This document shows, piece after piece, positions 4,079 through 21,797 of a stretch of DNA of 64,000 nt (position 1 is its first letter; each line of letters begins with the position of its first letter). Source of the stretch: Candidatus Obscuribacterales bacterium (GTDB lineage: Bacteria > Cyanobacteriota > Vampirovibrionia > Obscuribacterales > Obscuribacteraceae). The notes under the pieces are model-generated. The model did not search any database and was not told the origin of the DNA. It saw only the letters and a program-made list of their open reading frames with translations. The translations under genes and the position numbers were made by a program. Where the stretch lies: contig CBDDIJ010000002.1 of NCBI GenBank assembly GCA_965228855.1, positions 1,824,001 to 1,888,000 of the forward strand. The letters run 5' to 3'.

Positions 4079-4430
4079 TTCTCTATCCATAAGCGGAATC
4101 GAAGCAGGGGCTACGGTCCCTGCTAATTCCTTTTTCTTTTTGCTTCATGTGCTGTCGTCACTGCTTCTCGTAGCCGCACTTAAGTATCGCCCCGCAGTAG
4201 TTATGTGGATATTCGAATGCGATAACGCAGTGCCTGGCTCGTATCGCCATCAGTCGCAGCAGCACTTTGTCTTAGCGTTTCTATTTCCTTGAGTTTACGA
4301 GGTCGGCGCCACCGCGCGTCAAGCGCATCGCAGCACATTTCTCTCCACTCTTACATCTCCGCTTGACCCACGGAGCCAACCCCGTGCCCCGGTTTTGAGG
4401 CGAAACGCCGCACTAACCAGAGGTATGCAC

Positions 4431-5252
4431 ATGGAAAAGAAATACGGTCTTGAGTTGACCAACAACAGCAAGGCATCTTGGGCCTTCAGCTTGCCGCGCA
4501 GCGCTACTTGCATCGGCGCGACGGACATCTGCAAAAAGGTTTGTTATGGAAACGGAGTTCGGTATCGAACAAGCGGACAGAAAGCCCGTCGGGAACGCAA
4601 CCTTCGCACAATTGAACTTCTCTTGGCGAACGGGGGTCCCGAACGTCTCGCAGAAAATCTCATCGCGCTCATCGACACAGTTAGACCGAACGACTGGCTT
4701 GCAGCCTCGATAACCGGCACCCAGACCCAGACACCTTGGACACTGCGCATTCATGATGTTGGTGATTTCCATTCGCCGGAATACGTCAACGCATGGTTGC
4801 TCGCAGTTGAGCAGCGTCCGCTGTGCTCGTTCTGGTTCTATACGAGAAGTTTTTCCGATAAGCAGATCTTTGATGCAATGACTGAATTGGCATCAGCCGA
4901 GAATTGCAAGGGTTGGCTCAGTATCGATTCGGACAACTTCAATTCGGGCTTGCTTGCGTATGCGCAACGCCCAGGCGCATGGCAACTTGCATTGCTACAG
5001 GAGACTGAAGAACAGCTAGATTCGCAAGTGTTGCCAGCTATCGACAAATTTCTGCAAGCAAGGGAAGTTGTCTCCTTTCCGATTCATCGCGGTGGACACC
5101 ACGCTGAACTGATTCAGCATCCGGCGCTATTCACTTGCCCAGCGGTGATCGGCGTGCACAAATTACAGCCTGATTCGCACAAGCTGAGACCGTGCCAATC
5201 ATGCACATTCTGTTTGCCTTCACTTCCGAATTCCCTGGAGGTGAGAGCATGA
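4431..5252 (+). CDS. GP88-like Cys-rich protein (radical-SAM-like appearance)
   Basis: FSLP..TCIGATDICKKVCY, RIHDVGDF, FWFYTRS and C-terminal CP..C..C..C; GAGGT RBS. Confidence 0.7.
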   Translation: MEKKYGLELTNNSKASWAFSLPRSATCIGATDICKKVCYGNGVRYRTSGQKARRERNLRTIELLLANGGPERLAENLIALIDTVRPNDWLAASITGTQTQTPWTLRIHDVGDFHSPEYVNAWLLAVEQRPLCSFWFYTRSFSDKQIFDAMTELASAENCKGWLSIDSDNFNSGLLAYAQRPGAWQLALLQETEEQLDSQVLPAIDKFLQAREVVSFPIHRGGHHAELIQHPALFTCPAVIGVHKLQPDSHKLRPCQSCTFCLPSLPNSLEVRA

Positions 5253-7121: not shown

Positions 7122-7243
7122 ATTATGTTTTGGGTGCAATATGTGCCCCCAGAGGGCACGTTTTGCCCTTAAAGGATAACTGCGGTTATTATTTGGGTGT
7201 ATAATGTGTCCTGGGAGGGCACACTATGCGCCCAAATGATAAC
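7122..7243 (+). promoter_or_regulatory. Two long imperfect palindromes overlapping -10 (TATAAT 7200-7205) and start codon; probable AbiEi autoregulatory operators
   Basis: Palindromes 7122-7180 and 7185-7243 with ~26-28 bp arms sharing TTTGGGTG...TGTG(C/T)CC. Confidence 0.7.
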
Positions 7244-8059
7244 TCACTAAAAACCTTGGGGTCGCAGTCAGCAAAGCTTATCGCGGCACTCTATGACTTA
7301 GGTCGCGAAATATTCGGCTTTGAAGACGTCTGTGAACTTACCGGACTTCCCGATGACTCTGCGCGAAGCCTCGTCCGTAAGCTCGTCCGGCGAGGTGTTG
7401 TGACCAGGCTCAAACCGGGACTCTTTCAGCTAGTCCCGTTCCAGCTCGGATCTGAAGCGCAGTTCGTTGGCAACCCATATATCGTTGCCCGAGCACTGAT
7501 TCAGCCTCATCCGTACTATATTTCGCATGCGTCTGCCATGGACATCCATGGCATGCTTACGCAGCCGCAGTTTGTAGTGTACGTCACGTCGCTCGTTCGA
7601 CGCCGTCCAATGAGTGTTCACGGATATGACTATCGTTTCGTTAGAACAAAGCCAGAACACTTCTTCGGAATTACACAGCAGTGGGTGGACAAACACGAGC
7701 AAGTGCTGGTAAGCGATTTGGAAAAAACCATTGTTGATGCGCTAAAACAGCCTGAGCACTGTGGCGGCTTTACGGAAATCGCAAAAGCATTTTGGATTCG
7801 CAGGTCGGATATGGATATTGAGAAACTGGCAGACTACGCATTACGGCTCGATGTTAGCATCGTTGCGCGCAGACTCGGTTTCATGTTCGAAGTATTCAAC
7901 GTGAAGGATTCGGCTGCAATAGAGCGTCTCCAGGCAAAGGCAACGCGACCATATTTACTGCTTGATCCCATACTGCCGAGCGAAGGCAGCTACCAATCGC
8001 GTTGGAAGCTGCGGGTAAACGTTGAACCTGATGAAATACGTGCACTTGTAAGGACATAA
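7226..8059 (+). CDS. abiEi: Type IV TA antitoxin, AbiEi family
   Basis: N-terminal wHTH (RLKPGLF), YYISHASA..HG, VSDLEKTIVD, RRLGF. Confidence 0.88.
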   Translation: MRPNDNSLKTLGSQSAKLIAALYDLGREIFGFEDVCELTGLPDDSARSLVRKLVRRGVVTRLKPGLFQLVPFQLGSEAQFVGNPYIVARALIQPHPYYISHASAMDIHGMLTQPQFVVYVTSLVRRRPMSVHGYDYRFVRTKPEHFFGITQQWVDKHEQVLVSDLEKTIVDALKQPEHCGGFTEIAKAFWIRRSDMDIEKLADYALRLDVSIVARRLGFMFEVFNVKDSAAIERLQAKATRPYLLLDPILPSEGSYQSRWKLRVNVEPDEIRALVRT

Positions 8060-8902
8060 ATGATCCCTCAACGCAACATTTCCGTTTTAGCGAATCGCTT
8101 GGCCGCAGGCGGTGCACGCCGAATTCCAGAAGCCGTGCTGGAAAGAGATTATTGCATCGCTTGGTTTTTAGTCGGAGCATCGCGAACGAATCTACCAAAG
8201 ATGCTTGCGTTCAAAGGCGGAACAGCTCTGAAACGTTGTTACTTTGCGGATTACCGTTTTTCAGAGGATCTTGATTTTACACTTTTGCCCAATGCAAAAC
8301 TTGAAGATGCATTAAAGGAATTCGAGGCAGCATATGCCGAAACCCACAAAGCATCAGGCATCACGATTCGTCATTCACGGGATGAAGCAGAGCAGGGGGT
8401 CAACAGCCACACTTTCTACATAGCCTACGAAGGGCCACTTCCGGCAACGCGGAATGCCAAAGAGATCAAGGTGGACATCACACTGACGGAAAAGCTTGTA
8501 TTCGACCTTGAGAGCAGACCCGTGTTGCGTTCCTATGAGGAGTTCTCTGATCTGCCGGAGGACGCCGTCATCACCGTGTACAGTCTCAACGAAATTGCAG
8601 CGGAAAAGACCGTGGCACTGCTCGATAGAGCACGAACAGAACCTCGTGATTTGTATGACTTGTGCTTTCTGACAGAAGGCGGATACGTTAAGCTCGAAGA
8701 AATCGATCACGCGATACATGAGAAGCTCGCGTTCAGAGGCAAGAAGCTGGCGGAGGTCGCGCCGAATTTCAAGAACAAGGAAGCCCGTCTCAAAGCCCTG
8801 TGGACTGGCAGACTTGCTCACCAGATGATCACGCTCCCACATTTCGAAGAGACATATCGTTCTGTGCAGCGTTCCCTGCGGCAGGCTGGAATTACCGACT
8901 AA
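8060..8902 (+). CDS. abiEii: Type IV TA toxin, AbiEii/AbiGii nucleotidyltransferase
   Basis: LERDY, FKGGTALK..Y...RFSEDLDF, AEK, RDLYD; starts immediately after the antitoxin stop. Confidence 0.92.
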   Translation: MIPQRNISVLANRLAAGGARRIPEAVLERDYCIAWFLVGASRTNLPKMLAFKGGTALKRCYFADYRFSEDLDFTLLPNAKLEDALKEFEAAYAETHKASGITIRHSRDEAEQGVNSHTFYIAYEGPLPATRNAKEIKVDITLTEKLVFDLESRPVLRSYEEFSDLPEDAVITVYSLNEIAAEKTVALLDRARTEPRDLYDLCFLTEGGYVKLEEIDHAIHEKLAFRGKKLAEVAPNFKNKEARLKALWTGRLAHQMITLPHFEETYRSVQRSLRQAGITD

Positions 8903-9967: not shown

Positions 9968-10372
9968 ATGGCCAAACCAATACTCAAATCAAGAGTCGAA
10001 ACATATCTTTCGGCTGAAGACCATGACCGATTTATTTCTCTCTGCCGAAGAAGGAAAACAACACAAGCGTCAGTTGTGCGTGATGCGATTCGGTGGTACC
10101 TGAGCAATCACGATCAAATCAAGGAAAGCAAAGTTGAATCTGAGTTGTCCAAGAACATCAAGAACATGACTGACAGAATCTGCGGAATGTTGGCGAGACA
10201 AGGAGCACAAACGGGAACCTTGTACGAGCTCGCATGGCAAAACCATGTCGAGAACAAAATACAGGAAAGATTCGTAGCAGCATCAAATCTCGTCAAAGGC
10301 AAAATGCGAAAACGTCTTGAAGACGATGAAAAAGCAATTGCCGAAAGAATGACCAAGGTAGTCGGGCAATGA
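9968..10372 (+). CDS. Ribbon-helix-helix relaxosome accessory protein (MobC/CopG-like)
   Basis: RVETYLS..DHDRF..LC......ASVVRDAIRWYL; overlaps relaxase start. Confidence 0.7.
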   Translation: MAKPILKSRVETYLSAEDHDRFISLCRRRKTTQASVVRDAIRWYLSNHDQIKESKVESELSKNIKNMTDRICGMLARQGAQTGTLYELAWQNHVENKIQERFVAASNLVKGKMRKRLEDDEKAIAERMTKVVGQ

Positions 10373-11655
10373 TGATCGTTCGCCACAGCTACATATCCGT
10401 AAAGGCGAAACAACGCAGCGGCATCAAATTGAAGGTGGCGCGCTCACTGGCAATCGGCGCCGCTCTCGGACACGTTAAGTACATCCAACACCGCCCCGGA
10501 AAGGACCTGGAGGAAGGCGGTCGGGAAATGTTCACCGACACGGAGGACTCAGTGGACGCGAAAGAAATGCGAGACAAGGTTCGCGATTATGACGGCAAAG
10601 GCGTGGTGGTCCACAAGCTAACACTGTCACCGGAAGTCAGCCCCAACGATCCGAAAGAGTTTACGAGGGAGGTGATGCATCAGCTCGGTTCGGAGAAAGG
10701 ATTGGATCTCGAATGGTTTGCTGTCACGCACAACAATACCGATCATCGCCACGTGCATGTAGTGGTGATGCCGAAAGACAAGGAAGGTAGATTCGTCAGA
10801 TTCGATAAGAAAGACTACGACCTGATGAAAGAGTTCGGTGACAGATATCTGGAGCGGACTCAATACTCAGATTGCCGAGTGGCGGAATTCGAGCGACAAC
10901 AAAAACACAAGGAGCAAAAGAAAGAGAGGCAGCAACAATTTGAAAGGGATAGGCAAGAGCGAATCCGAAACGGCGAAGAGCTTCCCTGGCTACACAAGAA
11001 AATAGTCCGCGAAGAGCTTGAGCCGCACAGCGAATGGAGCAAGACTCAAGCACAAGATGAGAAGGAATCCTTCGAGTATCTCGGCCAACGATATTCAAAG
11101 AACGACGGCTACGAAAGACTAACCGGACTCCGGCGCCATCTTATGGAGAACACAGACAAATCGTTAAGGCTACCCAAGGAGGATTACAAACGGCTGGCAA
11201 GCTGGATCGACAGCAAGGACCGGGCGCGTTTCTCAGGCGAAATTCAACGCCAATTGAACAGTGCAAAAGCATCGGCAACCGCCCGTGAAGAAGCACGAAA
11301 CTCGCCGAATGCAAACCGCTACGTTTCGCCCCTTCAACAAGAAATGATGCGCAATCCCATCATGAGCCTATTTCTGACGGAAGCAGCAATCGCCGCAGAA
11401 CTCGTCCGATGGATACCGCTTACAGATCAACGTGATCGTCTCAAAGAAAACCGAGACGACCTTGAAGATGCTAAACGCGACGTCGAAGCCAAACAGCGAG
11501 GACGCGCTAATCCAGGCGCTAAAGCAGCAGACGAGGCAATCATCGAACAGATTGATGATGCCATAGAAGACAACAAAAACACTCGTAAAGATGCGCATAA
11601 GGAGCGCGAAGTAGAGAAAAGAAAGCGCGACCGCGATCTTGATTTCATGGAGTAA
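10369..11655 (+). CDS. Relaxase, MOBP-like
   Basis: HVKYIQHR (catalytic Tyr), HKLTLSP, H.NTDHRHVHVV HUH motif; charged C-terminal coiled coil. Confidence 0.85.
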   Translation: MMIVRHSYISVKAKQRSGIKLKVARSLAIGAALGHVKYIQHRPGKDLEEGGREMFTDTEDSVDAKEMRDKVRDYDGKGVVVHKLTLSPEVSPNDPKEFTREVMHQLGSEKGLDLEWFAVTHNNTDHRHVHVVVMPKDKEGRFVRFDKKDYDLMKEFGDRYLERTQYSDCRVAEFERQQKHKEQKKERQQQFERDRQERIRNGEELPWLHKKIVREELEPHSEWSKTQAQDEKESFEYLGQRYSKNDGYERLTGLRRHLMENTDKSLRLPKEDYKRLASWIDSKDRARFSGEIQRQLNSAKASATAREEARNSPNANRYVSPLQQEMMRNPIMSLFLTEAAIAAELVRWIPLTDQRDRLKENRDDLEDAKRDVEAKQRGRANPGAKAADEAIIEQIDDAIEDNKNTRKDAHKEREVEKRKRDRDLDFME

Positions 11656-11661
11656 GTACAA

Positions 11662-13611
11662 ATGCAAACAACCGCAAAGGATGTTGGCGTTGTTAATGCA
11701 GCGCCAAAAGATTTACCTGTCCTGGCAGTGAATGTTCTCGACAGGCTCGGCTACAACGTCTCACGAGCCAGCAAGCAGCTCGATCAAATTCTCGCAGTCG
11801 AAAGACTCGATGAAAAGGTAGGACGAGATTGGTGGAGGCACGAGTACCGAGTTGTGCTCAGATGGTCTGACGCAATGGGCGGCTCACGAGTCGAAATCGA
11901 AATTACAGAACGACAAGGAGGTGGGACTGAAGAAGACTGCCGGCAGAGATGCAAGCAAGTGATTGCAACTCTTCAGGCAGATGCAATTCGCGCAACGAAT
12001 GTCTCGTCAACCAAAACAAAATCGACGGTGCACGGAGGAGCCGCATGGGGAGACGAAACACAGCTGCGCCGCGCCGGATACATAACAACAAGACCGGAGG
12101 CAACACGGTTAATCATCGGGAAGACTCCGAAAGGTGAGTTTATTTCGATACCAGAACTGGTGACAAATGCGCACGCCATAGTCTGCGGTCGAACCGGTGT
12201 CGGAAAATCGCGAGGATTCTTCATTCCGAATCTGATTGAGCGAACCGGCAGCAACATGATCGTGACTGAGGCAACCCCAGGGTATGAACCAGGCGAACTA
12301 TACACACTAACCTCTGGATGGCGAAAGCAAGCAGGTCACACCATCTACTCATTCAATCCTGCCGACATGTCATCAACGCGAATCAATCCCGTCGACCGAG
12401 TGAGATGGGCGCCAGAACTGGAGAAAGCAAAGGAGGCTGAAAAGTTAGCCGATCTAATCATCATGAACGGCAGCGGAGAGGAAACGCGAATCGATCCGAC
12501 ATGGGATAGATCAGAGAAACAATTGCTCGTTTCACTGATACTGCATGCGGCGGCAACCGATCCTCAGAGAGGACATATCGGAGCACTGAGATGGCTGTTG
12601 TTATCGGGGGTGAGTAAGGTCCGCCAGGAACTCGCCAGAAGCCCTTCAGCGCTCGCACAAATGGAGTTTGAAGGCTGGCTAGGGTCAACCTCCGAGAACT
12701 TCCGTTTCGGGGTCTTGTCGGGGCTAATGACGAAGTTGAATCCATGGATAACGGATCAACTTGTCGCACTAACCGAGAAAACGGACGTGGATTTCGATGC
12801 GCTGAAGAAGCAACTCTTCACCTTCTACATCGCCGTGCCAAGCCGCTCCCGAGATAGCAAGCTAATCGGCTCACTCCTCGTGAATTTCCTGCTCGACTAT
12901 CTGCTCGATAGCAAATCGACGATGAAGTATCCAACATCGCTCTTTCTCGATGAATTCACAAACTTCGGAAAGATCGCAAACATTGCGAATGTTCTATCAA
13001 TCGTCAGAAAAGCCAAGCTAAGTCTCGTGCTCGGATTTCAAAACTACTTCCAGCTCGAACGAGTCTACTCACAAAAGGAGGCACAGATCATCTTCGACCA
13101 ACCGGCAACGCAAATCTACTTCCGACAGAAAAACTTCCGCGAAGCCCGAGCACTGAGCGAAGCGTTAGGAAGAACGACAATCGAAGAAGTCACCGTGAGC
13201 GATACCGGACGAGTACAAGAGTTTATCCAAGGAAGATCACTTGCAACGCCGGACGAACTCATAAATCTGAGCGGCGAAGTCATCACTTTCACGAACGACA
13301 CTTGGCCGCTCAAAATCCCGCTCACATCGCCAACAGCCTATCACTATGCCCTTGCATATCCACCGCCGGAACGATCACCGCACGAAATTTCAGAAACGAT
13401 TCGAAAGCGTGGCCGCACCGAGCGACCAGAAACCAGTCAACGCAAGGAAGAGAGCAAGCCCGAAGGAAAGAACCGGAACCGTGAGCGTAACCGCAACGAT
13501 AAGAAGCGGAATGTCAATCAACGTACTGCGCAAGAGCGCGCAAACGAAGACAACGCCAATCAATTTCAACAGCAAGACTCACCGGAGGTAGATGACGTAT
13601 GGCCGTCGTAG
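11662..13611 (+). CDS. virD4: Type IV coupling protein, VirD4/TraG family
   Basis: Walker A GRTGVGKS, FFIPNL, FNP..S.RINP, Walker B LFLDEFTN, Q..FQL..VY, A..LSEALG..T. Confidence 0.9.
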   Translation: MQTTAKDVGVVNAAPKDLPVLAVNVLDRLGYNVSRASKQLDQILAVERLDEKVGRDWWRHEYRVVLRWSDAMGGSRVEIEITERQGGGTEEDCRQRCKQVIATLQADAIRATNVSSTKTKSTVHGGAAWGDETQLRRAGYITTRPEATRLIIGKTPKGEFISIPELVTNAHAIVCGRTGVGKSRGFFIPNLIERTGSNMIVTEATPGYEPGELYTLTSGWRKQAGHTIYSFNPADMSSTRINPVDRVRWAPELEKAKEAEKLADLIIMNGSGEETRIDPTWDRSEKQLLVSLILHAAATDPQRGHIGALRWLLLSGVSKVRQELARSPSALAQMEFEGWLGSTSENFRFGVLSGLMTKLNPWITDQLVALTEKTDVDFDALKKQLFTFYIAVPSRSRDSKLIGSLLVNFLLDYLLDSKSTMKYPTSLFLDEFTNFGKIANIANVLSIVRKAKLSLVLGFQNYFQLERVYSQKEAQIIFDQPATQIYFRQKNFREARALSEALGRTTIEEVTVSDTGRVQEFIQGRSLATPDELINLSGEVITFTNDTWPLKIPLTSPTAYHYALAYPPPERSPHEISETIRKRGRTERPETSQRKEESKPEGKNRNRERNRNDKKRNVNQRTAQERANEDNANQFQQQDSPEVDDVWPS

Positions 13612-14162
13612 CAATCATTGTCGGAACATTCGTGTTCCTTCTCACCGGAGCATGCATCGGCGAAGCATCACATGACGCAGGTGCGGGAATAGTGCCAGGA
13701 CTTGTCCTCGGCGTACTCGTTGCGATTCCAATTTTCAAAGCCGCCTGCGAAGAGCGCGCGAAACTTCTCCATCCTCAACCGCGAGAATACCGGGTTCCAG
13801 CAAAAATCGCATTCGCAAAAATCCGCGATATTCTCGCCGAGATCTCCTACAACTACGGAGATAAATGGCACGTCGTAACGGCTGATACTCAAACAGGAAG
13901 AATCACCGCAAACCTGCGCTTCATCGACGAATTCACGCGATTGGAAGGTGACGCGCGCGGAAATATCCACACGCGAAAGGAGCGCCTACAGCGCTTCCTT
14001 GCAGTCGATATAAAGGTGCAACCGACCGAACGCGGAACAGCCATCATCGTACTGGACTTTAGACCAACGGTGGAAGGGGTTAACTATGCGGCATGCGATA
14101 GCATCATTTCATCCCTAGCGATTGCAATACACAGCGAGATTAACCGCTCTACAACGTCCTGA
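13599..14162 (+). CDS. Membrane protein (2 TM plus soluble alpha/beta domain)
   Basis: Overlaps virD4 end, GGAGGT RBS, two N-terminal hydrophobic helices. Confidence 0.7.
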   Translation: MAVVAIIVGTFVFLLTGACIGEASHDAGAGIVPGLVLGVLVAIPIFKAACEERAKLLHPQPREYRVPAKIAFAKIRDILAEISYNYGDKWHVVTADTQTGRITANLRFIDEFTRLEGDARGNIHTRKERLQRFLAVDIKVQPTERGTAIIVLDFRPTVEGVNYAACDSIISSLAIAIHSEINRSTTS

Positions 14163-14227: not shown

Positions 14228-16003
14228 ATGGCAGGTCATCTTTTCTCTTGGTTGCCTCTTTCCAAAATCCCCGGTCAGTTTTCGAAAGGAATGTCGGCGG
14301 ACGAATTAAAGAGAATCGTGGAATGCGCTAAGTATGACCCTGCGCTATTCACTTGCATTCATTTGAATGGCATAGTGTCAAATGCCAATGTAGCAAATCA
14401 TCGAGAGCGACAATTAGAAGCAGTAGGCCACATACTTCTTTCTCCTGAAACGAGAAAAATTGTAGACAAGTTTGTGCGGCAGGATCCTTCCCCATTTGTG
14501 CTGTCTCGTCGCCACTTACTGGAGCTGGTTAAGTGGGTGGCGGTGTACGCAGGAGGCGCACCTCCAGCCGATAAAGAGAGCCCGGACCAGTTTTTGCTCG
14601 CAGCAATTGCCGCTGTCGAACTCGCAGCAGAACGTCATGACGCAAGCTTTGCGGCGAGCAAGGACGATCCGCCTGAGGAAAGGATTCGCAAAGCCTTACC
14701 TGCCATTAGAGAGATATCCCTTTACGCAGATCCAGGCTGGTTCCCGTTGCATTCCTTAGGTAGAGCCAAGATTCTGCTTGAAGATGGAGTGTTCAAGAAT
14801 GAGAAATTCACAAAAGAATTTGTCAAAAAAACTGGTTTTACACTCGAAGAATTCTTGACTTGCATGGCAGGAATTGCGTGCCTCGGGCTTGGCGCCAAGA
14901 GGCCAGAAAGTGGCTCTAGGCAGTATGCCTTCGCCCTAAAGAATTTGGTGGCTCAGGCACCGGACTTGGAGGCTCTGTTCAAGAAATTTTTCTCTTGTTT
15001 TGCCACTAGCCCAGAGCAAATTCGCAAAGCGCTCGCTGGAAAAAGCCCAACCGACTTTTATGACTTCAAATTGCTAAGACAGCGACCTATAGTGGGTTTC
15101 GACGATGGGACGTTTCTGATAGTTGATCCAATATTCTTTGCGCAATGTCTTGCGGTTGGACCGATGTTTAGAGTGCTTGGAATAGGCGAAAATGAGGTGT
15201 TTGGCGCCTTCGGAACTGCCTTCGAGAATTATGTGGCATCGTTGTTCGATAGTTACTGTAAGCGTTTTCTCGGAAACACGGGTGGATATTTATCAAAAAA
15301 CAAACACATCGATTTAGGAAAAGGACAGCAGAGAGAATTGTCGGACATTTGCATCTCCTTCGAAAATGAGGTTGTCCTAATAGAAACCAAAGGGGCGTGG
15401 CTAAAGGATACCGTCTTATCGGATCTCGATCCTGGCGATTTCTTAGCCGAACTCCACGCTAAGTATGGCGTCCACGAGGAAAATGACCGCGACAAAGGCT
15501 TCGCACAGCTAGCGGATTCGATTAGAGCACTCGCCGACGGACGAGTCATTGCTGAGACGGATGGTGGCAGGGACGAAGCTAATCTGGTATTTCCCGATAC
15601 AGTCAAGACAATCTATCCAGTACTTGTGGTTCACGATCCTCTTATCCATGCTACGGGCTTCATCGGGCACATTCTCGCAATTGAATTTGCAAGAAGACTT
15701 GGTCAAAGTGATGCAAGTCAATCCGGTTTCTTTGAGTATTCTGGAGCAAAACGAACGTTTCGGATAGCCAATCTCACTCTTATCACTATTGATGATCTTG
15801 AGGATCTCTTCGCTATTGGAGCGTGCAGTAGGAACTTCCTGGAGCATGTTCAAGGCTTTTCGGAGATCGATCCTTTCCGTTTAGCTGCGACGTTTGATGA
15901 ATATGTAGCATTGCAAGGACGGGCTGATCCTCTGCTATCGCCTTTAGTGGCAAAATCGCAAGAGCTGTTAAAACGAGCTGGCCGCGCGCTGATACCTTCC
16001 TAA
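14228..16003 (+). CDS. Hypothetical protein with C-terminal PD-(D/E)xK nuclease-like domain
   Basis: GTAFENYV...ELSDICI...VVLIETKG...Q motif pattern. Confidence 0.7.
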   Translation: MAGHLFSWLPLSKIPGQFSKGMSADELKRIVECAKYDPALFTCIHLNGIVSNANVANHRERQLEAVGHILLSPETRKIVDKFVRQDPSPFVLSRRHLLELVKWVAVYAGGAPPADKESPDQFLLAAIAAVELAAERHDASFAASKDDPPEERIRKALPAIREISLYADPGWFPLHSLGRAKILLEDGVFKNEKFTKEFVKKTGFTLEEFLTCMAGIACLGLGAKRPESGSRQYAFALKNLVAQAPDLEALFKKFFSCFATSPEQIRKALAGKSPTDFYDFKLLRQRPIVGFDDGTFLIVDPIFFAQCLAVGPMFRVLGIGENEVFGAFGTAFENYVASLFDSYCKRFLGNTGGYLSKNKHIDLGKGQQRELSDICISFENEVVLIETKGAWLKDTVLSDLDPGDFLAELHAKYGVHEENDRDKGFAQLADSIRALADGRVIAETDGGRDEANLVFPDTVKTIYPVLVVHDPLIHATGFIGHILAIEFARRLGQSDASQSGFFEYSGAKRTFRIANLTLITIDDLEDLFAIGACSRNFLEHVQGFSEIDPFRLAATFDEYVALQGRADPLLSPLVAKSQELLKRAGRALIPS

Positions 16004-16018
16004 TCGTTGAACATTTTG

Positions 16019-18367
16019 CTACTTTTTGCGAGACCGCTTAGCAGCTAGTTTTGCTGAATCTGCGTCGATGAATTCGTAGTAGTCCTGAACGCCTAGATGA
16101 AGTTGTTGTGTCACATTGCTGATTCGCTGGAGTTTGTCATGCCCCATTTTCCACGAATAGCGCGTATCAATGAATTTGAATTGCTTGCCAGCGATGTCCT
16201 GCCAACAACCGGGCGTTTTGCTATTTTGCAGAAGTTCGTGCGCGGTAAGTATGATCAATCTCAGCGGACGATCTAACTTCCGCCATTGCCGAAGTCCGCT
16301 CACTGCAATCGATCTCAAAGCTCGTTTCTCACGGTTTGTCAATTCCCGCCGCAGTGTTGCGAACACAAACGTCGCCCCTGGAAATAATCGCATCAATTCC
16401 TTGGCTCGTTTGAAATCACGCTCTTCAAATTTGTCGAACGTTTTGCATTCAGCAAAAACCATAGCGGGTTCAGCATCCCTGAGTCGTTCGGTAGTCTTCC
16501 ACCAGAGCGCCAAGTCAATTTCTAAATCGTTAGGCTTCCCTCGCTTCAGTTCAATGCCCGGATACCAAGAAATATCGTCCCCAATCGACCAACTGAAAAA
16601 TCGCGCTGTTAACAAAACGGTGTACGCACCACCAGCGAAGTCTGGCATGCTGAAGGGCCCCAGAGCCCGATACGACCAGTGGGCCTTCGATGGTTGATCC
16701 GCGGGGAACGGAAAACTTCGCAGACATCGATCACATGTGAGAACTTCAGCGAGACCTGACAGCGCAAACCAATTCTTTCTTCCGCATGACGAACAGTCCA
16801 GCTCGACTCCGATGCGCACGCTCTTTGCCTTCGTCATGAACTCCAGAATTCGTGGATAATGCCTATCCCCGCCGACAGAATGCGCTTGCTTTAGTCGACC
16901 GACCAACTGCTTGTACGTAAGACTATTTCCTTTTGACAGATGGTGAAAGGTGTTCAACACTTCGACTGAAGCAAGATAGTATGCCTTGCTTAGTCCTTCA
17001 CTGGCTCTAGTCAGTTCCAGCACGTTTGTTCCGGCTGCAGATCGGGCGACTGTAAACTTCCTGTCGGAGAACCATTTTTGAAAGACGTCCCAATGGCTCG
17101 GTAGCTCAAGATTCAGCGCATCCGTCTTGCCTGCGCAACCGACCACAAAGCCCTCTGAATTATTCCAGCTTGATGTTTTGTCGGCGGACATATAAGACGA
17201 CTGGGCGAATGAAAAATACGGCATGACTGTCGCCGCATCGAGCTCGTCGCTATCGTGCTTGGGCGAAAAAACATTAACCCAGTGACTGTAATAAAAGCCA
17301 AACTGATCTGATTCACGGATCCAGTTTGGGAAGAGTGGACTACAAGTTACTGTTGATGTGCCTGGCTGACGCGGCACAACATCTTTTGCGGCTTGGATAT
17401 CTCGCCGGAACGCTCTATCAGAATCGCGGTACTCCTTCCGCCAGATGCGTGGATGCCAACTTCTCACAATGAACTTTTTGCGGCCAGGTTTGATCTGCTT
17501 ATGAAAACTTTCAAAGTCCTGTTCTGAAATTGAGCGGCCACGCATGATCTGAACTTGCTCAGTTTTTGACTGAGCGATGAATTTGTTAGCTATTTTGACC
17601 GCCGAGTCGTTCCATTGCATAACTAAAGGAACCATTTTCCATCCCAAAGCACGCAAGTTCCAATAGTCCACAATGTCTATGAATGACCCAGCATCCATGT
17701 AGAAAAGGCTTGTTGCCTCGATTTCCTGGCGTTGGATATATCTCAGTCCGGATGAACCAAGCCAGAGAAGATTGGTTCCCTGCTGAAAGAAATGTTTGAG
17801 AGCTTCTTCCTCGTTCAGATCGATTTCGTTCGCTAAAAATAGCTCTTTTACGTCTTGAGTAACTTGTCCCCAAGCTCTGCGAGGAAACCGCCCTAATGTC
17901 GCCGCAGTAACCAACGACGTATCGGACACCGCGCGAGCAGCAATTGATACAGCGGGTTTCTCGGACTTGCCCGAATGAAGCTGCTTGTCGTAAACATTAC
18001 CTAGAAGCGAAATAATGCTTAGCCCATACCAGCCACCCGGCTCAAAAATCTTGTTGCCAGGCTGATACACCACGCGCTTGCTGAAAGGAAAGGGAATGCT
18101 CTCGGCTGCTTGATGATTTTCAGCGACAATGTAATCGGGCTCAAATGTTTCCAAATGTCCGAGCAGGATTTCTTGTGCGGATGGATTCTCAAATCTTCCG
18201 TCAGAGTAACCTTTGGGCCGGACCTTGTAGTTCGGGATGATCGGATTGAACATTCCGCCCCAAAGACACGTGTTGAGTTCGATGGCGCGTGCGAGTTGCC
18301 GAAAATCCCCGGGAGCGACAAGCGTCGCAAATCGTACTGGTCGCAATCGCCGGGGAATTTGCTGCAT
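16019..18367 (-). CDS. Large protein with Zn ribbon and C-terminal PD-(D/E)xK nuclease-like domain
   Basis: 782-aa ORF; CSSC..CDRC; EIDLAL...VFAECKT. Confidence 0.72.
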   Translation of the reverse strand: MQQIPRRLRPVRFATLVAPGDFRQLARAIELNTCLWGGMFNPIIPNYKVRPKGYSDGRFENPSAQEILLGHLETFEPDYIVAENHQAAESIPFPFSKRVVYQPGNKIFEPGGWYGLSIISLLGNVYDKQLHSGKSEKPAVSIAARAVSDTSLVTAATLGRFPRRAWGQVTQDVKELFLANEIDLNEEEALKHFFQQGTNLLWLGSSGLRYIQRQEIEATSLFYMDAGSFIDIVDYWNLRALGWKMVPLVMQWNDSAVKIANKFIAQSKTEQVQIMRGRSISEQDFESFHKQIKPGRKKFIVRSWHPRIWRKEYRDSDRAFRRDIQAAKDVVPRQPGTSTVTCSPLFPNWIRESDQFGFYYSHWVNVFSPKHDSDELDAATVMPYFSFAQSSYMSADKTSSWNNSEGFVVGCAGKTDALNLELPSHWDVFQKWFSDRKFTVARSAAGTNVLELTRASEGLSKAYYLASVEVLNTFHHLSKGNSLTYKQLVGRLKQAHSVGGDRHYPRILEFMTKAKSVRIGVELDCSSCGRKNWFALSGLAEVLTCDRCLRSFPFPADQPSKAHWSYRALGPFSMPDFAGGAYTVLLTARFFSWSIGDDISWYPGIELKRGKPNDLEIDLALWWKTTERLRDAEPAMVFAECKTFDKFEERDFKRAKELMRLFPGATFVFATLRRELTNREKRALRSIAVSGLRQWRKLDRPLRLIILTAHELLQNSKTPGCWQDIAGKQFKFIDTRYSWKMGHDKLQRISNVTQQLHLGVQDYYEFIDADSAKLAAKRSRKK

Positions 18368-18369
18368 GA

Positions 18370-20208
18370 TCAGTTCGCTTGACGTGGCGCGCCCGACATC
18401 AACGCTTCTAGATGATCATAAGCAGCGTTGTACGTTTCGCCATCGAGCCGAAGCAGATCATCGATTATCCATTCTTGCAGCGGACGTTCGGACAGCAGGA
18501 ATCGAACGTCCTTCTGCCCCTGACGCGCAGTTCTAAACAGTTTGCCGTTGATCGAGATTGTCAATCCTTGCGTCGAGTTTCTTCCGCTTGGCTCACCTAA
18601 ATACAATTCAGCTTTCGGATGACTCCGCTCAGGGTCTCGCAACCAACACTCTGTGAGCTTCGGACGTGTGGCTCCCTCAGAGAATTTATCGAAATCAAGA
18701 AAGTAGGCGAATGCAGTTGACGGGTTTAAGAACTTGCCTTGAAGTAACCGAGAAAGACCGTTTACCTCGACAAATGACCAATATTCTTGAAACAAATTCG
18801 AGATGATTTGACGCAGATTGTACTCAAGCAACTCCCGATGCTCATGACCAGGCAACAAGCAGATCGGCATACCGCCACATTGCTTATACGGGCGCTGGAT
18901 AGTATCTACGCCCATACCCCTAAGAGTTTCTACCGACTCAACCAACTGGCGCAAGTACATGTGGGAAAAGTATAAACACGGATACGACTGTACCTGCCCG
19001 GCTTGTATTGCTTGTACAACTTCCGCCTGCGATACCTGCGCGACGTGCGGGTAATCACCCATAAAGAGCCCATCAAGCGTAGGAATCTGTTGATCTCCGT
19101 TTGGATCGAATGCTAAGCCGTGTTTTTTCAGCGCCTGTTCATACCAAGCGGGTAGGTATGTCGTGGCACCATACGCGACGTCGTCGAGCTTCAATACTGA
19201 ATTAGCTTTTAGTCCCATGGCAAGACCGAAGCGATCAACGAATGCGAAGATGGTTTCCGCGCATAGCATTTGGCCACCAAGCCGGAAAAGACGATTCTGA
19301 AATCCGGTCCGATATACTTGGTAGAGAAAATCCTTTGCCATCAGATCAGGCCGAAGCAGATCAGATCTGCCAATCGTCTTACTGGAAAGCCCCTCATTTA
19401 GTCCATCGATAGAAAACTGACTAATACTGGTGGCACCACGAGCAGTATCACCGTCTCTCTCAAATTCTAGTCCTTTGGGCACCTGGACGAGTAAAGGACC
19501 GTTACTGCATTTTTCGACGGCATATTCTCGAAAAGTAACCGATTCAATGTCGTGGCTGAATAAGGCAACTCCAAACTTCCAAACGTTCGGAAAAAGGACG
19601 GGCTTCAGAACCTTGAACTCGGAGTCCAGTCCGGTGTTTATGGTATCCACATATAGTTGAAAAGCGCCAACAAGATCGCTTGGGATTCCAGAGAGCGACA
19701 GTTCGTGCAATATCTCAGTGCGCAGTATGTGCGCTCCCTTAAATAAGGCCTGATACTGCTGCAGAATCACTTTCCACATTTGAATGTATTGATGTGAGTC
19801 CGTGATTACATCTGTCTGTTGATCGAAATGAACTGTAAACGTCTGTTGTTCTGGTCTGTACTCGGGCATCGAGTGATGTATGTGTTTCCAGTACACATCA
19901 CCGCCTTCGACATCAACGCACACGAGAAGAATAGGTGCGAAACAGATCCTGCTGTAGGCAACCAGTGACGTCGGGCATGGATAGCTTGTTTTGCCCCTTC
20001 CTATTGCTTTAACCTGTACTTCAAACTTGCCCACCGGCACGCGTCTCGAATCAACTAATGTCAACGTACCATCAGTATTTGGCGTTTTGTCCCGGGTCTG
20101 CACGTCCGCCTTTACTACATTTGAATCTATGCGTTCACAAAAGATGGTGACGGCGCGAAATTCGGCCGTATCTGTCTGAGGATAGGTCGCTGGCTCTGGT
20201 TCACGCAT
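18370..20208 (-). CDS. DUF4365-like N-terminal nuclease domain protein
   Basis: E..AV, DKTPNTDG, FEVQVK, PILLVCVD...YW; ATG 20208 overlaps the upstream stop (ATGCGTGA). Confidence 0.72.
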   Translation of the reverse strand: MREPEPATYPQTDTAEFRAVTIFCERIDSNVVKADVQTRDKTPNTDGTLTLVDSRRVPVGKFEVQVKAIGRGKTSYPCPTSLVAYSRICFAPILLVCVDVEGGDVYWKHIHHSMPEYRPEQQTFTVHFDQQTDVITDSHQYIQMWKVILQQYQALFKGAHILRTEILHELSLSGIPSDLVGAFQLYVDTINTGLDSEFKVLKPVLFPNVWKFGVALFSHDIESVTFREYAVEKCSNGPLLVQVPKGLEFERDGDTARGATSISQFSIDGLNEGLSSKTIGRSDLLRPDLMAKDFLYQVYRTGFQNRLFRLGGQMLCAETIFAFVDRFGLAMGLKANSVLKLDDVAYGATTYLPAWYEQALKKHGLAFDPNGDQQIPTLDGLFMGDYPHVAQVSQAEVVQAIQAGQVQSYPCLYFSHMYLRQLVESVETLRGMGVDTIQRPYKQCGGMPICLLPGHEHRELLEYNLRQIISNLFQEYWSFVEVNGLSRLLQGKFLNPSTAFAYFLDFDKFSEGATRPKLTECWLRDPERSHPKAELYLGEPSGRNSTQGLTISINGKLFRTARQGQKDVRFLLSERPLQEWIIDDLLRLDGETYNAAYDHLEALMSGAPRQAN

Positions 20209-21202
20209 CTCGGGCGACTCCAAATTCGAACCAGTTTTCGCTCTCTGGACGTTCCTCCTTAGCACTGCTACCTTGAACAAATGGAACTATCTGTTGGCTA
20301 GAGAGCACCGCATCTCCCTTCTTTAGCGCGCCTCTAAAAACGACACTCTCGATCCGAAAGTTCCGATTCTTTTGAATGAACATGGGTACCCATTCATGCG
20401 CATCCCGATAAAAGACAAGGTCCTCCGCGCTCTGCACGACTATTCGATTTATGTTTCTGACTTGCTCCCTCGTCGCAGAGTACATACGGAATTTGACCTC
20501 CGCCGGCGTCGGCCGATTCTTTACCTCAGGGTCTGGCTTGATACGAACCGCGACTTTAGGTGTTAGCGGAATCACCTTATTGTTGATGTTCGTGAATCGG
20601 TTAGACGGCTCAAGCCCAATCGGGTAGTCGCTCGTAAAAAATGGACTTTCATCGAATTCATTGTGAATGATTTCCCAATCGCATTTACCTAGAATCGCGG
20701 TTGTTTTCTCGATGTTCTGAATGCCGAATGCTTGCGGATATTTCCCGTCAATTCGTATCTCGGCTGCTCCGTCTTCGATCATTTGATCAATGCTGACGCC
20801 ATGGAGCCGGGGAACAATCCCTTTGCGATCAAGAATTTTCGCCGTTGACGTGAGCAGTTGCCGCAGGAACGGCGCGTGCAATCTCATTGATGTGGGAGAG
20901 CACGAGCTTATGCATGAAACAAGCCCAGCAATAGCTCGAACGGTTTCATGATCAACACGCCCAACTGAAAGATTGCTTACAGCATCGTTATATCTCGGCT
21001 CAAACTCTTCCAGAAAGCCTTCAATCATCCGATCATCAGCAAGATATCGATTGGTGCTGCCGTCTTGAATTGCACATACCGCCTTCGTTCCGGGAGTAAA
21101 TGTCTTCAGATCGCTCTTGCGAATCGCGTGCAATCGTCCCCCGGACGGCAAAGATACCCATCCCTTGAGATGCACCTGCGGAACATAATGATCTAGTGGC
21201 AC
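20201..21202 (-). CDS. DUF4238-like protein
   Basis: N-terminal HYVPQ.HL..W, IE..L..FE, FFTSDYP, PLTP..A, IN; GTG start with GAGG RBS. Confidence 0.8.
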   Translation of the reverse strand: MPLDHYVPQVHLKGWVSLPSGGRLHAIRKSDLKTFTPGTKAVCAIQDGSTNRYLADDRMIEGFLEEFEPRYNDAVSNLSVGRVDHETVRAIAGLVSCISSCSPTSMRLHAPFLRQLLTSTAKILDRKGIVPRLHGVSIDQMIEDGAAEIRIDGKYPQAFGIQNIEKTTAILGKCDWEIIHNEFDESPFFTSDYPIGLEPSNRFTNINNKVIPLTPKVAVRIKPDPEVKNRPTPAEVKFRMYSATREQVRNINRIVVQSAEDLVFYRDAHEWVPMFIQKNRNFRIESVVFRGALKKGDAVLSSQQIVPFVQGSSAKEERPESENWFEFGVARDA

Positions 21203-21265
21203 TTTCGGTCCTCACGATTAACGACGTATGGCATTCGAAAACGGGCCATCAGCCGAGAACCCTCT

Positions 21266-21311
21266 ATTGTCGCGCGTAAGCAAGCGGATATCAAGCGCGC
21301 CAATTGATATC
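21266..21311 (-). promoter_or_regulatory. Candidate promoter of the DUF4238 operon with overlapping palindrome
   Basis: Minus strand TTGATA-N17-GACAAT; GATATCAA-N9-TTGATATC palindrome at 21287-21311 covers the -35. Confidence 0.45.
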
Positions 21312-21706: not shown

Positions 21707-21720
21707 ACTAGGCTTTTAAT

Positions 21721-21797
<77 letters not shown>

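What the first reader, a model, noticed from the sequence alone, without database searches (positions are those of the whole stretch)
16019..21202. Coupled three-gene DUF4238 / DUF4365 / Zn-ribbon nuclease operon: candidate undescribed anti-phage system
Seen: three minus-strand genes tightly coupled (8-bp ATGCGTGA overlap, then a 2-bp gap) at the tRNA-proximal end of the element. Gene 2 has an N-terminal D-G/VQVK nuclease motif and a long unrecognisable C-terminus. Gene 3 has about 500 aa of unknown N-terminus, two CxxC motifs and an EID...ECK nuclease motif. Known: DUF4365-like and other PD-(D/E)xK domains act as effectors in defence systems, and element ends are cargo hotspots. Inference: a multi-component sensor-nuclease system that I cannot match to any named system.
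Basis: partly seen in the sequence, partly recalled or inferred. Interest (0 to 1): 0.8.

Follow-up and report, generated by a model that had tools for sequence, protein, structure and literature searches.

The report
Stacked defence genes hide trefoil nuclease
These three tightly packed genes sit in a swappable defence slot of a mobile element and their distant relatives are found apart, so they are likely three separate anti-phage genes rather than one system; the third belongs to a large unnamed family predicted to join a three-lobed sensor to a Card1/Can2-type nuclease.

Summary
In detail: three coupled minus-strand genes (DUF4238; DUF4365 nuclease; a 782-aa orphan with Zn ribbon and ExD..ExK motif) end a 31.5-kb element integrated at tRNA-Met. 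The 'multi-component system' reading is poorly supported. The trio travels together only in near copies of this element (84-98% identity). Among more distant relatives, 0 of 80 gene-3 loci carry a gene-1-subfamily or gene-2-family gene, and 0 of 80 gene-2 loci carry gene 3. A 61%-identical gene-1 orthologue sits in the same slot with other partners. A single DUF4238 protein is already a published anti-T7 system. The slot is a defence hotspot: 15 of 19 sister elements hold CBASS, Gabija, Avs, AbiE, SIR2-HerA or similar there. The lead worth keeping is gene 3: about 2,000 clusters at 50% identity, 18 phylum-level groups, no Pfam, NCBIfam or PADLOC name, often beside or inside restriction-modification operons. 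AlphaFold predicts a CWB2-like trefoil (middling match, Z about 8), a beta domain, a winged helix with Zn ribbon, and a Card1/Can2-type nuclease with near-invariant catalytic residues. It is likely a stand-alone sensor-nuclease. No function was tested.

The parts
20201..21202 (-). Gene 1: DUF4238 protein (333 aa); likely a stand-alone anti-phage gene
   Evidence: Pfam DUF4238 E 2e-16; only a weak PADLOC DUF4238-Pers hit, E 0.008; 442 homologues; 61% orthologue in the same slot of a sister element without genes 2/3
18370..20208 (-). Gene 2: N-terminal DUF4365 PD-(D/E)xK nuclease plus about 450-aa unnamed C-terminal module (612 aa)
   Evidence: Pfam DUF4365 37-134; E16, D46, Q65 in 57 of 58 family rows, K/R67 in 57 of 58; the C-terminal module is fused to a Ser/Thr kinase instead in L242; not folded
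16019..18367 (-). Gene 3: 782-aa orphan; predicted trefoil domain (about 8-310), beta domain (about 325-420), winged helix with Zn ribbon (about 425-575), Card1/Can2-type nuclease (about 575-760)
   Evidence: AF2 pLDDT 90; fold searches; D618 in 292 of 292, E640 290, K642 291, four Cys 291-292 of 292; 2,055 clusters at E<=0.001
14228..16003 (+). Convergent fourth cargo gene, distantly GapS1-like (591 aa); swapped out in relatives
   Evidence: NCBIfam GapS1 51 bits against a cut-off of 320; contigs of runs X5 and X6 join across it
21718..21767 (-). att repeat (3' part of tRNA-Met); identical 50-bp copy at G000:C2:1814215-1814264, about 9.7 kb left of the window
   Evidence: blastn in own genome; integrase-like ORF (my reading of the sequence, not scanned) and type I RM-like ORFs next to the far copy
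21721..21797 (-). tRNA-Met(CAT), integration site
   Evidence: ARAGORN
9968..14162 (+). Mobilisation backbone: small ORF, relaxase, VirD4-like coupling protein, and a conserved 187-aa gene that marks the left edge of the cargo slot
   Evidence: Pfam Relaxase and T4SS-DNA_transf; backbone found in many genomes of the order
7226..8902 (+). AbiEi/AbiEii toxin-antitoxin pair of the same element
   Evidence: PADLOC E 1e-82 and 3e-74

Best explanation
The three genes lie coupled in the variable cargo slot of a tRNA-Met-integrated mobilisable element, and are likely three separately acquired, self-contained anti-phage genes sharing one transcript rather than subunits of one system. Gene 1 likely works like the published single-gene DUF4238 system. 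Gene 2 is likely a one-protein sensor-nuclease: a DUF4365 nuclease on an exchangeable C-terminal module. Gene 3 is likely also a one-protein sensor-nuclease. Its predicted N-terminal trefoil would hold the enzyme off until it binds an infection signal (most likely a phage-made macromolecule or nucleic-acid intermediate). The winged helix/Zn ribbon would then engage nucleic acid, and the Card1/Can2-type ExD..ExK site would cut it non-specifically, causing growth arrest or death. SHOWN: coupling, element, hotspot, separate occurrence of the families, conservation of catalytic and Zn residues. PREDICTED: folds. INFERRED: shared transcript, defence function, sensing, activation and outcome. My odds: independence 0.8; gene 3 an anti-phage or anti-plasmid nuclease 0.8; trefoil as the sensor 0.5.
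For: (1) Gene-3 loci, best 80 of 401 in GTDB (65 have at least 3 kb upstream): gene-2 family 0 of 80 and gene-1 subfamily 0 of 80. 63 of 80 have no coupled same-strand neighbour of 150 aa or more, and the 22 coupled partners fall into 16 families. (2) Gene-2 loci, best 80 of 84: gene 3 in 0 of 80; the commonest coupled upstream partner is a solo cas1. (3) In 106 other genomes of the order: gene-3 profile matches in 6, gene-2 profile in 6, DUF4238 in 9; none has both gene-2 and gene-3 matches, and the 3 with gene 3 plus DUF4238 carry them on different contigs. (4) Sister elements carry the families singly: a 61% gene-1 orthologue followed by other genes (L249), a gene-2 homologue (L201), a distant gene-3 homologue next to Avs2 (L203). 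(5) The slot holds PADLOC-recognised defence genes in 15 of 19 anchored sister elements (9 of 12 with both edges seen; hand count). (6) 25 of 58 gene-3 loci with a scanned neighbour have an RM, AbiE, BREX, HNH, HEPN, PIN or REase gene within two ORFs (hand count), against 0 of 34 chromosomal ORFs of this window. (7) A single DUF4238 protein protects against T7 (PMC9122126). (8) The gene-3 C-terminal half matches Card1, Can2, Cdn1 and VC1899 at Z 9.1-10.0; the ExD motif is required in Can2 (PMC7969007). (9) Gene 2's C-terminal module is fused to a kinase in L242.
Against: The trio is kept as a block in near relatives while the neighbouring GapS1-like gene is exchanged: one 10,251-bp contig spans all three; contigs of runs X6-X8 bridge the junctions; a 14,801-bp contig holds all three, judged from equal contig lengths only. 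Domain-level pairings recur rarely: a distant DUF4238 4 bp upstream of a gene-2-like start (L162), a DUF4238 fragment after one (L087), an unrelated DUF4365 protein overlapping a gene-3 homologue (L028), a DUF4238 9 kb from one (L012), and a divergent DUF4238 793 bp from the one plasmid homologue. Gene-2 loci are short: only 26 of 80 have 1 kb downstream. The GTDB gene-3 homologues are only 24-31% identical, and the contexts of the 48-58% homologues could not be fetched. 19 of the 71 full-length loci in the tree are related Poribacteria. The window control uses a stricter E cut-off and one genome. Trefoil matches are middling (Z 8.0-8.6, rmsd 4.5-5.3, 7-9% identity). No effector swap of the trefoil was seen among 139 new top hits. 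No function or expression was shown.
Confidence: 0.68

Rival explanations
1. The trio is a real but young or lineage-restricted three-component system, in which DUF4238 and the two nucleases have become co-dependent (shared trigger, or one guards another).
For: 8-bp overlap and 2-bp gap; block kept in relatives at 84-98% identity from at least two other studies while the adjacent gene is swapped; the DUF4238-then-DUF4365 order recurs once at a distance (L162).
Against: No co-occurrence of the gene-2 and gene-3 families in 80+80 loci or 106 genomes. Equally tight coupling joins these families to many unrelated partners.
Confidence: 0.13
2. Gene 3 is an orphan second-messenger effector: the pseudo-three-fold trefoil replaces the CARF domain and binds a cyclic oligonucleotide made by CBASS or type III CRISPR elsewhere in the cell.
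For: Nuclease half most like the cOA-activated Card1/Can2/Cdn1; three alpha/beta lobes could suit a cyclic trinucleotide (inference); CBASS genes are frequent in the same slot of sister elements.
Against: A cyclase-like gene near only 1 of 80 gene-3 loci, searched with six cyclase queries. No SMODS, Cmr2 or Csm1 match in the 95%-complete host genome (other synthase families not searched). The Card1/Can2 alignments start at residue 380 or later and do not cover their CARF domains. The three lobes show no sequence-level repeat.
Confidence: 0.1
3. Gene 3 is a modification-dependent (type IV) or RM-guarding nuclease that reads modified DNA or the state of the neighbouring RM complex, like anticodon nucleases nested in type I RM operons (analogy recalled, not from a call).
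For: 16 of 58 scanned loci have an RM neighbour (hand count); in related Poribacteria loci the gene lies between hsdM and hsdS (L016, L018, L032, L036, L054, L066); lower-ranked folds include MspJI and AspBHI; the host element carries type I RM-like genes.
Against: Most loci have no RM neighbour; RM partners are of several types; the MspJI/AspBHI matches (Z about 6) lie mainly on the shared nuclease core.
Confidence: 0.09

Closest known systems
DUF4238 single-gene system from the P2 hotspot (Rousset et al. 2022, PMC9122126; PADLOC DUF4238-Pers)
   Same: Gene 1 is a full-length DUF4238 protein in a mobile-element hotspot
   Different: Only E 0.008 to the PADLOC model, so a distant subfamily; activity untested
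Card1 / Can2 / Cdn1 / VC1899 (DUF1887 CARF nucleases)
   Same: Gene 3 residues about 380-753 align at Z 9.1-10.0 (rmsd 3.6-5.0); same ExD then ExK motif order
   Different: No CARF match; a 300-aa trefoil plus beta domain in its place, and a Zn ribbon; no link to type III CRISPR seen
CWB2 trefoil of C. difficile Cwp6, Cwp8 and SlpA (PF04122)
   Same: The only listed solved folds that span the whole gene-3 N-terminal domain (216-225 residues, Z 8.0-8.6; Foldseek prob 0.93, TM 0.43, E 0.015)
   Different: 7-9% identity, rmsd 4.5-5.3, no Pfam CWB2 hit, no repeat or PILL motif; fused to a nuclease and with no obvious signal peptide (by eye), whereas CWB2 anchors surface proteins to PSII (PMC5842191)
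DUF4365 (DREN) effectors of SPARDA/short Argonaute systems and of Divona
   Same: Gene 2 N-terminal domain with Q-x-K site (TmuRE Q62/K64, PMC10810196; here Q65/K67)
   Different: No APAZ domain match and no Argonaute gene nearby; C-terminal 450 aa unnamed; match limited to residues 42-138
GAPS1 (10.1101/2023.03.28.534373)
   Same: Functional model for genes 2 and 3: one protein holding sensor and PD-(D/E)xK effector, carried as mobile-island cargo; the adjacent gene 14228-16003 is a distant relative
   Different: Genes 2 and 3 have no GapS1 hit; the adjacent gene scores 51 bits against a cut-off of 320

Membership tests
   0 of 80 and 0 of 80 loci, 0 of 106 genomes with gene 2 plus gene 3; together only in near copies at 84-98% identity
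DUF4238 single-gene system | DUF4238 domain over most of the protein | tested here: met
   Pfam residues 5-268, 60.7 bits against cut-off 27
DUF4238 single-gene system | Strong match to the system's own profile | tested here: not met
   PADLOC DUF4238-Pers E 0.008, 13.7 bits
DUF4238 single-gene system | Protects against phage alone | not testable with these tools
   Shown for another member only (PMC9122126)
Card1/Can2 (DUF1887) | C-terminal PD-(D/E)xK nuclease with ExD..ExK and preceding helical subdomain | tested here: met
   Z 9.1-10.0; E616 284, D618 292, E640 290, K642 291 of 292
Card1/Can2 (DUF1887) | N-terminal CARF domain | tested here: inconclusive
   No CARF hit in Pfam or PADLOC; no CARF chain listed for the N-terminal model, but an unlisted family is not excluded
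Card1/Can2 (DUF1887) | Association with type III CRISPR | tested here: not met
   No Cmr2 or Csm1 match in the host genome; no Cas hit among 117 scanned neighbours
Card1/Can2 (DUF1887) | cOA activation and dimer formation | not testable with these tools
   Biochemistry needed; the dimer prediction could not be run
CWB2 (PF04122) | Trefoil of three toprim-like lobes | tested here: inconclusive
   Whole-domain match at Z 8.0-8.6, rmsd 4.5-5.3, near the level that common arrangements reach
CWB2 (PF04122) | Three sequence repeats matching PF04122 | tested here: not met
   No Pfam hit in P0003 or 24 family members; lobe-to-lobe hhalign probability at most 2.3%
SPARDA (DUF4365-APAZ plus short pAgo) | DUF4365 nuclease domain | tested here: met
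SPARDA (DUF4365-APAZ plus short pAgo) | APAZ domain and adjacent short Argonaute | tested here: not met
   PADLOC match confined to residues 42-138; neighbours are not Argonautes
Integrative mobilisable element | att repeats at a tRNA, relaxase and coupling protein | tested here: met
   the integrase was read from the sequence, not scanned

The most novel reading that the evidence does not exclude
Gene 3 founds a large, cross-phylum, undescribed single-gene immune family in which a CWB2-like trefoil, known so far as a surface anchor for an anionic polymer, serves as an intracellular infection sensor that switches on a Card1/Can2-type nuclease without CRISPR or CBASS signalling. This would add a new sensor fold and a new kind of trigger to bacterial immunity.
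Probability: 0.3. Interest if true: 0.75.

Novelty: new variant of a known kind. Interest (0 to 1): 0.48.

Why it matters
As a three-gene system the finding mostly dissolves. What remains is useful in two ways. First, gene 3 marks a family of about 2,000 divergent clusters, seen in 18 phylum-level groups, that Pfam, NCBIfam (June 2026) and PADLOC (2023) do not name, with a fixed architecture and near-invariant catalytic and Zn residues. It can be tested as one gene, with homologues from cultured gammaproteobacteria. If the trefoil is the sensor, it is a new way to activate a Card1/Can2-class nuclease. Second, the slot between the 187-aa gene and the tRNA-Met att site is a defence hotspot of an element family common in this order, so its unannotated genes are good candidates for further systems.

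Tried and rejected
No gene-3 relative in IMG/VR (single-sequence patterns) or INPHARED phages; one plasmid hit. Sequence search of the PDB with the gene-3 and gene-2 profiles gave nothing significant. ESM Atlas: only unnamed clusters for the whole protein, nothing usable for residues 1-330. No CARF or SAVED chain was listed for the N-terminal model; this absence is weak. PADLOC on 26 gene-3 family members: one marginal 55-aa hit. Promoter and terminator scan: no more sites than in shuffles. No RNA holder listed, which says nothing on expression. A phylum-wide sample of 400 genomes gave only four weak N-terminal gene-2 matches. A same-genus gene-3 match (G004) is a fragmented distant copy without genes 1/2 nearby. 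Three look-ups of earlier scan findings returned nothing. Ten paper searches: DUF4238; DUF4365; CWB2+anti-phage (0); Card1/Can2/defense system/winged helix/zinc ribbon (3; the CoCoNuT passages read were not about this family); CWB2+toprim+trimer; DUF1887+phage+defense; cell wall binding+anti-phage+zinc ribbon+nuclease+AlphaFold (0); GAPS1+phage; Obscuribacterales+defense systems+phage (0; the name was my guess, the host lineage was not determined); Cwp6+defense system+nuclease (1, unrelated by its listing). None described the gene-3 family, but the library lacks most subscription papers, supplements were not read, and current DefenseFinder models are not held.
Full report
Observation. Gene 1 is DUF4238, gene 2 begins with DUF4365, and gene 3 has no Pfam, PADLOC or NCBIfam hit. 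A 50-bp perfect repeat of the tRNA-Met 3' end (window 21718-21767 and G000:C2:1814215-1814264) bounds a 31.5-kb element. It carries an integrase-like ORF and type I RM-like ORFs at the far end (read from the sequence), AbiEi/AbiEii, RadC, a relaxase and a VirD4-like protein.

The slot. The relaxase-VirD4-187-aa backbone recurs across the order. I fetched 20 stretches beside the 187-aa gene; 19 showed that anchor and 12 also the tRNA. PADLOC and Pfam scans of 75 ORFs (all ORFs of 120 aa or more in the 12 bounded slots, only the nearest ORFs in the other 7) found CBASS genes (L190, L191, L195, L201, L205), Gabija (L192), AbiL with a Ppl-like gene (L193), Avs2 (L194, L203), Mokosh-like and NERD-UvrD genes (L198), AbiE (L204, L206, L208), PifA with SIR2-HerA (L202) and an Avs1-like protein (L207). 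That is 15 of 19 by hand count; L196, L197, L199 and L200 had none. None of the 19 holds the trio. The slot is a defence hotspot, which makes a defence role for its occupants likely but says nothing about their working together.

Do the three belong together? For: in near copies of the element they do. One 10,251-bp soil contig spans 16063-21777 and joins directly to 14038, skipping the GapS1-like gene; run X6 has 4.1 kb of other DNA there. Contigs of X6-X8 bridge the junctions. Cluster members on contigs of 10,251 and 14,801 bp include all three proteins at 87-98% identity (the second by equal contig length only). Two further contigs (19,216 and 326,791 bp) list gene 1 and a gene 3 starting at residue 116, with no gene 2 listed.

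Against: among the best 80 of 401 gene-3 loci in GTDB (24-31% identity; 65 with at least 3 kb upstream), a 58-sequence gene-2 profile and a 121-sequence gene-1 profile hit 0 of 80. A broader DUF4238 profile hit 1 of 80, 9 kb away. One locus has an overlapping DUF4365 gene whose C-terminal part is unrelated to gene 2 (L028). 63 of 80 have no coupled neighbour, and the 22 coupled partners fall into 16 families. Among 80 of 84 gene-2 loci (only 26 with 1 kb downstream), gene 3 is in 0 and a DUF4238 in 2 (L162 upstream and distant from gene 1, L087 a downstream fragment). The commonest coupled partner there is a solo cas1. In 106 other genomes of the order the gene-3 profile hits 6, the gene-2 profile 6 (three of them only by the DUF4365 domain, one only by the C-terminal module) and DUF4238 9. 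None has both gene 2 and gene 3, and the three with gene 3 plus DUF4238 have them on different contigs. Most telling, a 61%-identical gene-1 orthologue sits in the same slot and orientation of a sister element, followed by different genes (L249). A single DUF4238 protein gives strong resistance to T7 (PMC9122126, passage read). The simplest reading is three stand-alone genes stacked in one unit and inherited by linkage. A young three-part system is not excluded (0.13).

Gene 2. E16, D46 and Q65 are kept in 57 of 58 family rows and position 67 is K or R, matching the Q62/K64 site proposed for the DUF4365 domain of TmuRE (PMC10810196, passages). The same N-terminal domain occurs on TPR proteins, and the C-terminal module occurs behind a Ser/Thr kinase (L242). 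This exchange is typical of one-protein sensor-effector defence genes (inference). DUF4365 also occurs in the single-protein system Divona (10.1101/2024.07.02.601686, one passage). Gene 2 was not folded.

Gene 3. The family is large: 159 hits, 401 GTDB loci, and 2,055 clusters at 50% identity for the N-terminal profile. Of 139 new top hits, 108 reach the end of the nuclease and the other 31 stop early without a recognisable other domain. A tree of 73 proteins spans 18 phylum-level groups, with Pseudomonadota and Thermodesulfobacteriota scattered. In the order it is rare and patchy. None of 24 members scanned has a Pfam or NCBIfam hit over cut-off for this architecture (one carries a small C-terminal DUF2934), and 26 members give one marginal PADLOC hit. 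By hand count, 25 of 58 loci with a scanned same-strand neighbour have an RM or other defence gene within two ORFs, against 0 of 34 chromosomal ORFs in this window (stricter cut-off, so a rough control). In related Poribacteria the gene lies between hsdM and hsdS.

The AlphaFold model of gene 3 is confident (pLDDT 90, pTM 0.91). Residues about 380-753 match Card1, Can2, Cdn1 and VC1899 (Z 9.1-10.0), and the ExD pair is essential in Can2 (PMC7969007, passages). D618, E640, K642 and the four cysteines are kept in 290-292 of 292 sequences. The N-terminal domain, folded alone (pLDDT 86), is spanned only by the CWB2 trefoils of Cwp6, Cwp8 and SlpA (216-225 residues, Z 8.0-8.6, rmsd 4.5-5.3; Foldseek Cwp6 prob 0.93, E 0.015). 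These bind the polymer PSII with residues from all three lobes (PMC5842191, passages). The match is middling and there is no sequence repeat, so I treat it as a likeness of architecture, not membership. The domain has its own near-invariant motifs (W36-G-G, P77-D78, G159, D231..W236-N..R239, P306), which suggests a conserved binding or structural role.

Mechanism. I commit to a one-protein sensor-nuclease: the trefoil senses an infection-specific molecule, the winged helix/Zn ribbon engages nucleic acid, and the Card1/Can2-type site cuts non-specifically, arresting the cell. GAPS1 is the closest working model (capsid-triggered dormancy; 10.1101/2023.03.28.534373, passages). All of these steps are inferred. 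A cyclic-oligonucleotide trigger is less likely, since only 1 of 80 loci has a cyclase-like gene nearby and the host shows no SMODS, Cmr2 or Csm1 match. A type IV or RM-guard role remains possible.

Novelty and verdict. The trio as a system: probably not real beyond linkage. Gene 1: a distant new member of a known kind. Genes 2 and 3: unnamed sensor-nuclease families, gene 3 being a widespread new variant of the Card1/Can2 kind with a different N-terminal module. Ten paper searches (listed under Tried and rejected) found no description of it; papers were read as keyword passages only, no supplements were read, and large prediction tables in supplements or recent DefenseFinder releases may already list members. 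Interest 0.48.

Noticed in passing
L137, L142, L144, L145, L155, L156/L157/L163, L158, L159, L147: Gene-2-family DUF4365 genes lie directly behind a solo cas1 (mostly a 4-bp overlap) in a recurring set of small mobile-looking loci with shared upstream genes; in L147 a DarT-Macro gene is inserted between them. Possibly casposon-like elements carrying defence cargo (label recalled, not tested).
   Followed up: partly
window 14228-16003 (+): Distant GapS1-like gene (51 bits, cut-off 320), with 26-28% homologues in L198 and L254; replaced by other DNA in near relatives.
   Followed up: partly
slot between window 14162 and 21718 in sister elements (L190-L208, L249): Defence hotspot of an element family common in this order; several slot genes have no PADLOC or Pfam name (L192:1087-3083 pair, L194:859-2589, L197:1801-6734, L204:10016-11227) and are candidate new systems.
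   Followed up: partly
L242:7954-10542 (-), genome G013: Ser/Thr kinase fused to the gene-2 C-terminal module in place of the DUF4365 nuclease.
   Followed up: partly
L016, L018, L032, L036, L054, L066: Gene-3 homologues nested between hsdM and hsdS of type I RM operons in Poribacteria, some with an AAA_15/DUF3696 plus PIN cassette.
   Followed up: partly
L230/L252 and L231/L251: Tandem pairs of two DUF4238-like genes, the upstream one with CxxC motifs at its start.
   Followed up: no
window 4395-5252 (+): GP88-like gene (Pfam E 8e-27) next to RadC and an SSB-like ORF in the element backbone.
   Followed up: no
G000:C3:724518-727973: Array of 21 tRNA genes on one strand, some with odd anticodon calls.
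   Followed up: no
runs X6 and X7 laid on window 16065-21303: Relatives are about 98% identical over gene 1 but about 81-88% over genes 2 and 3, hinting at recombination near the gene 1/2 boundary.
   Followed up: no
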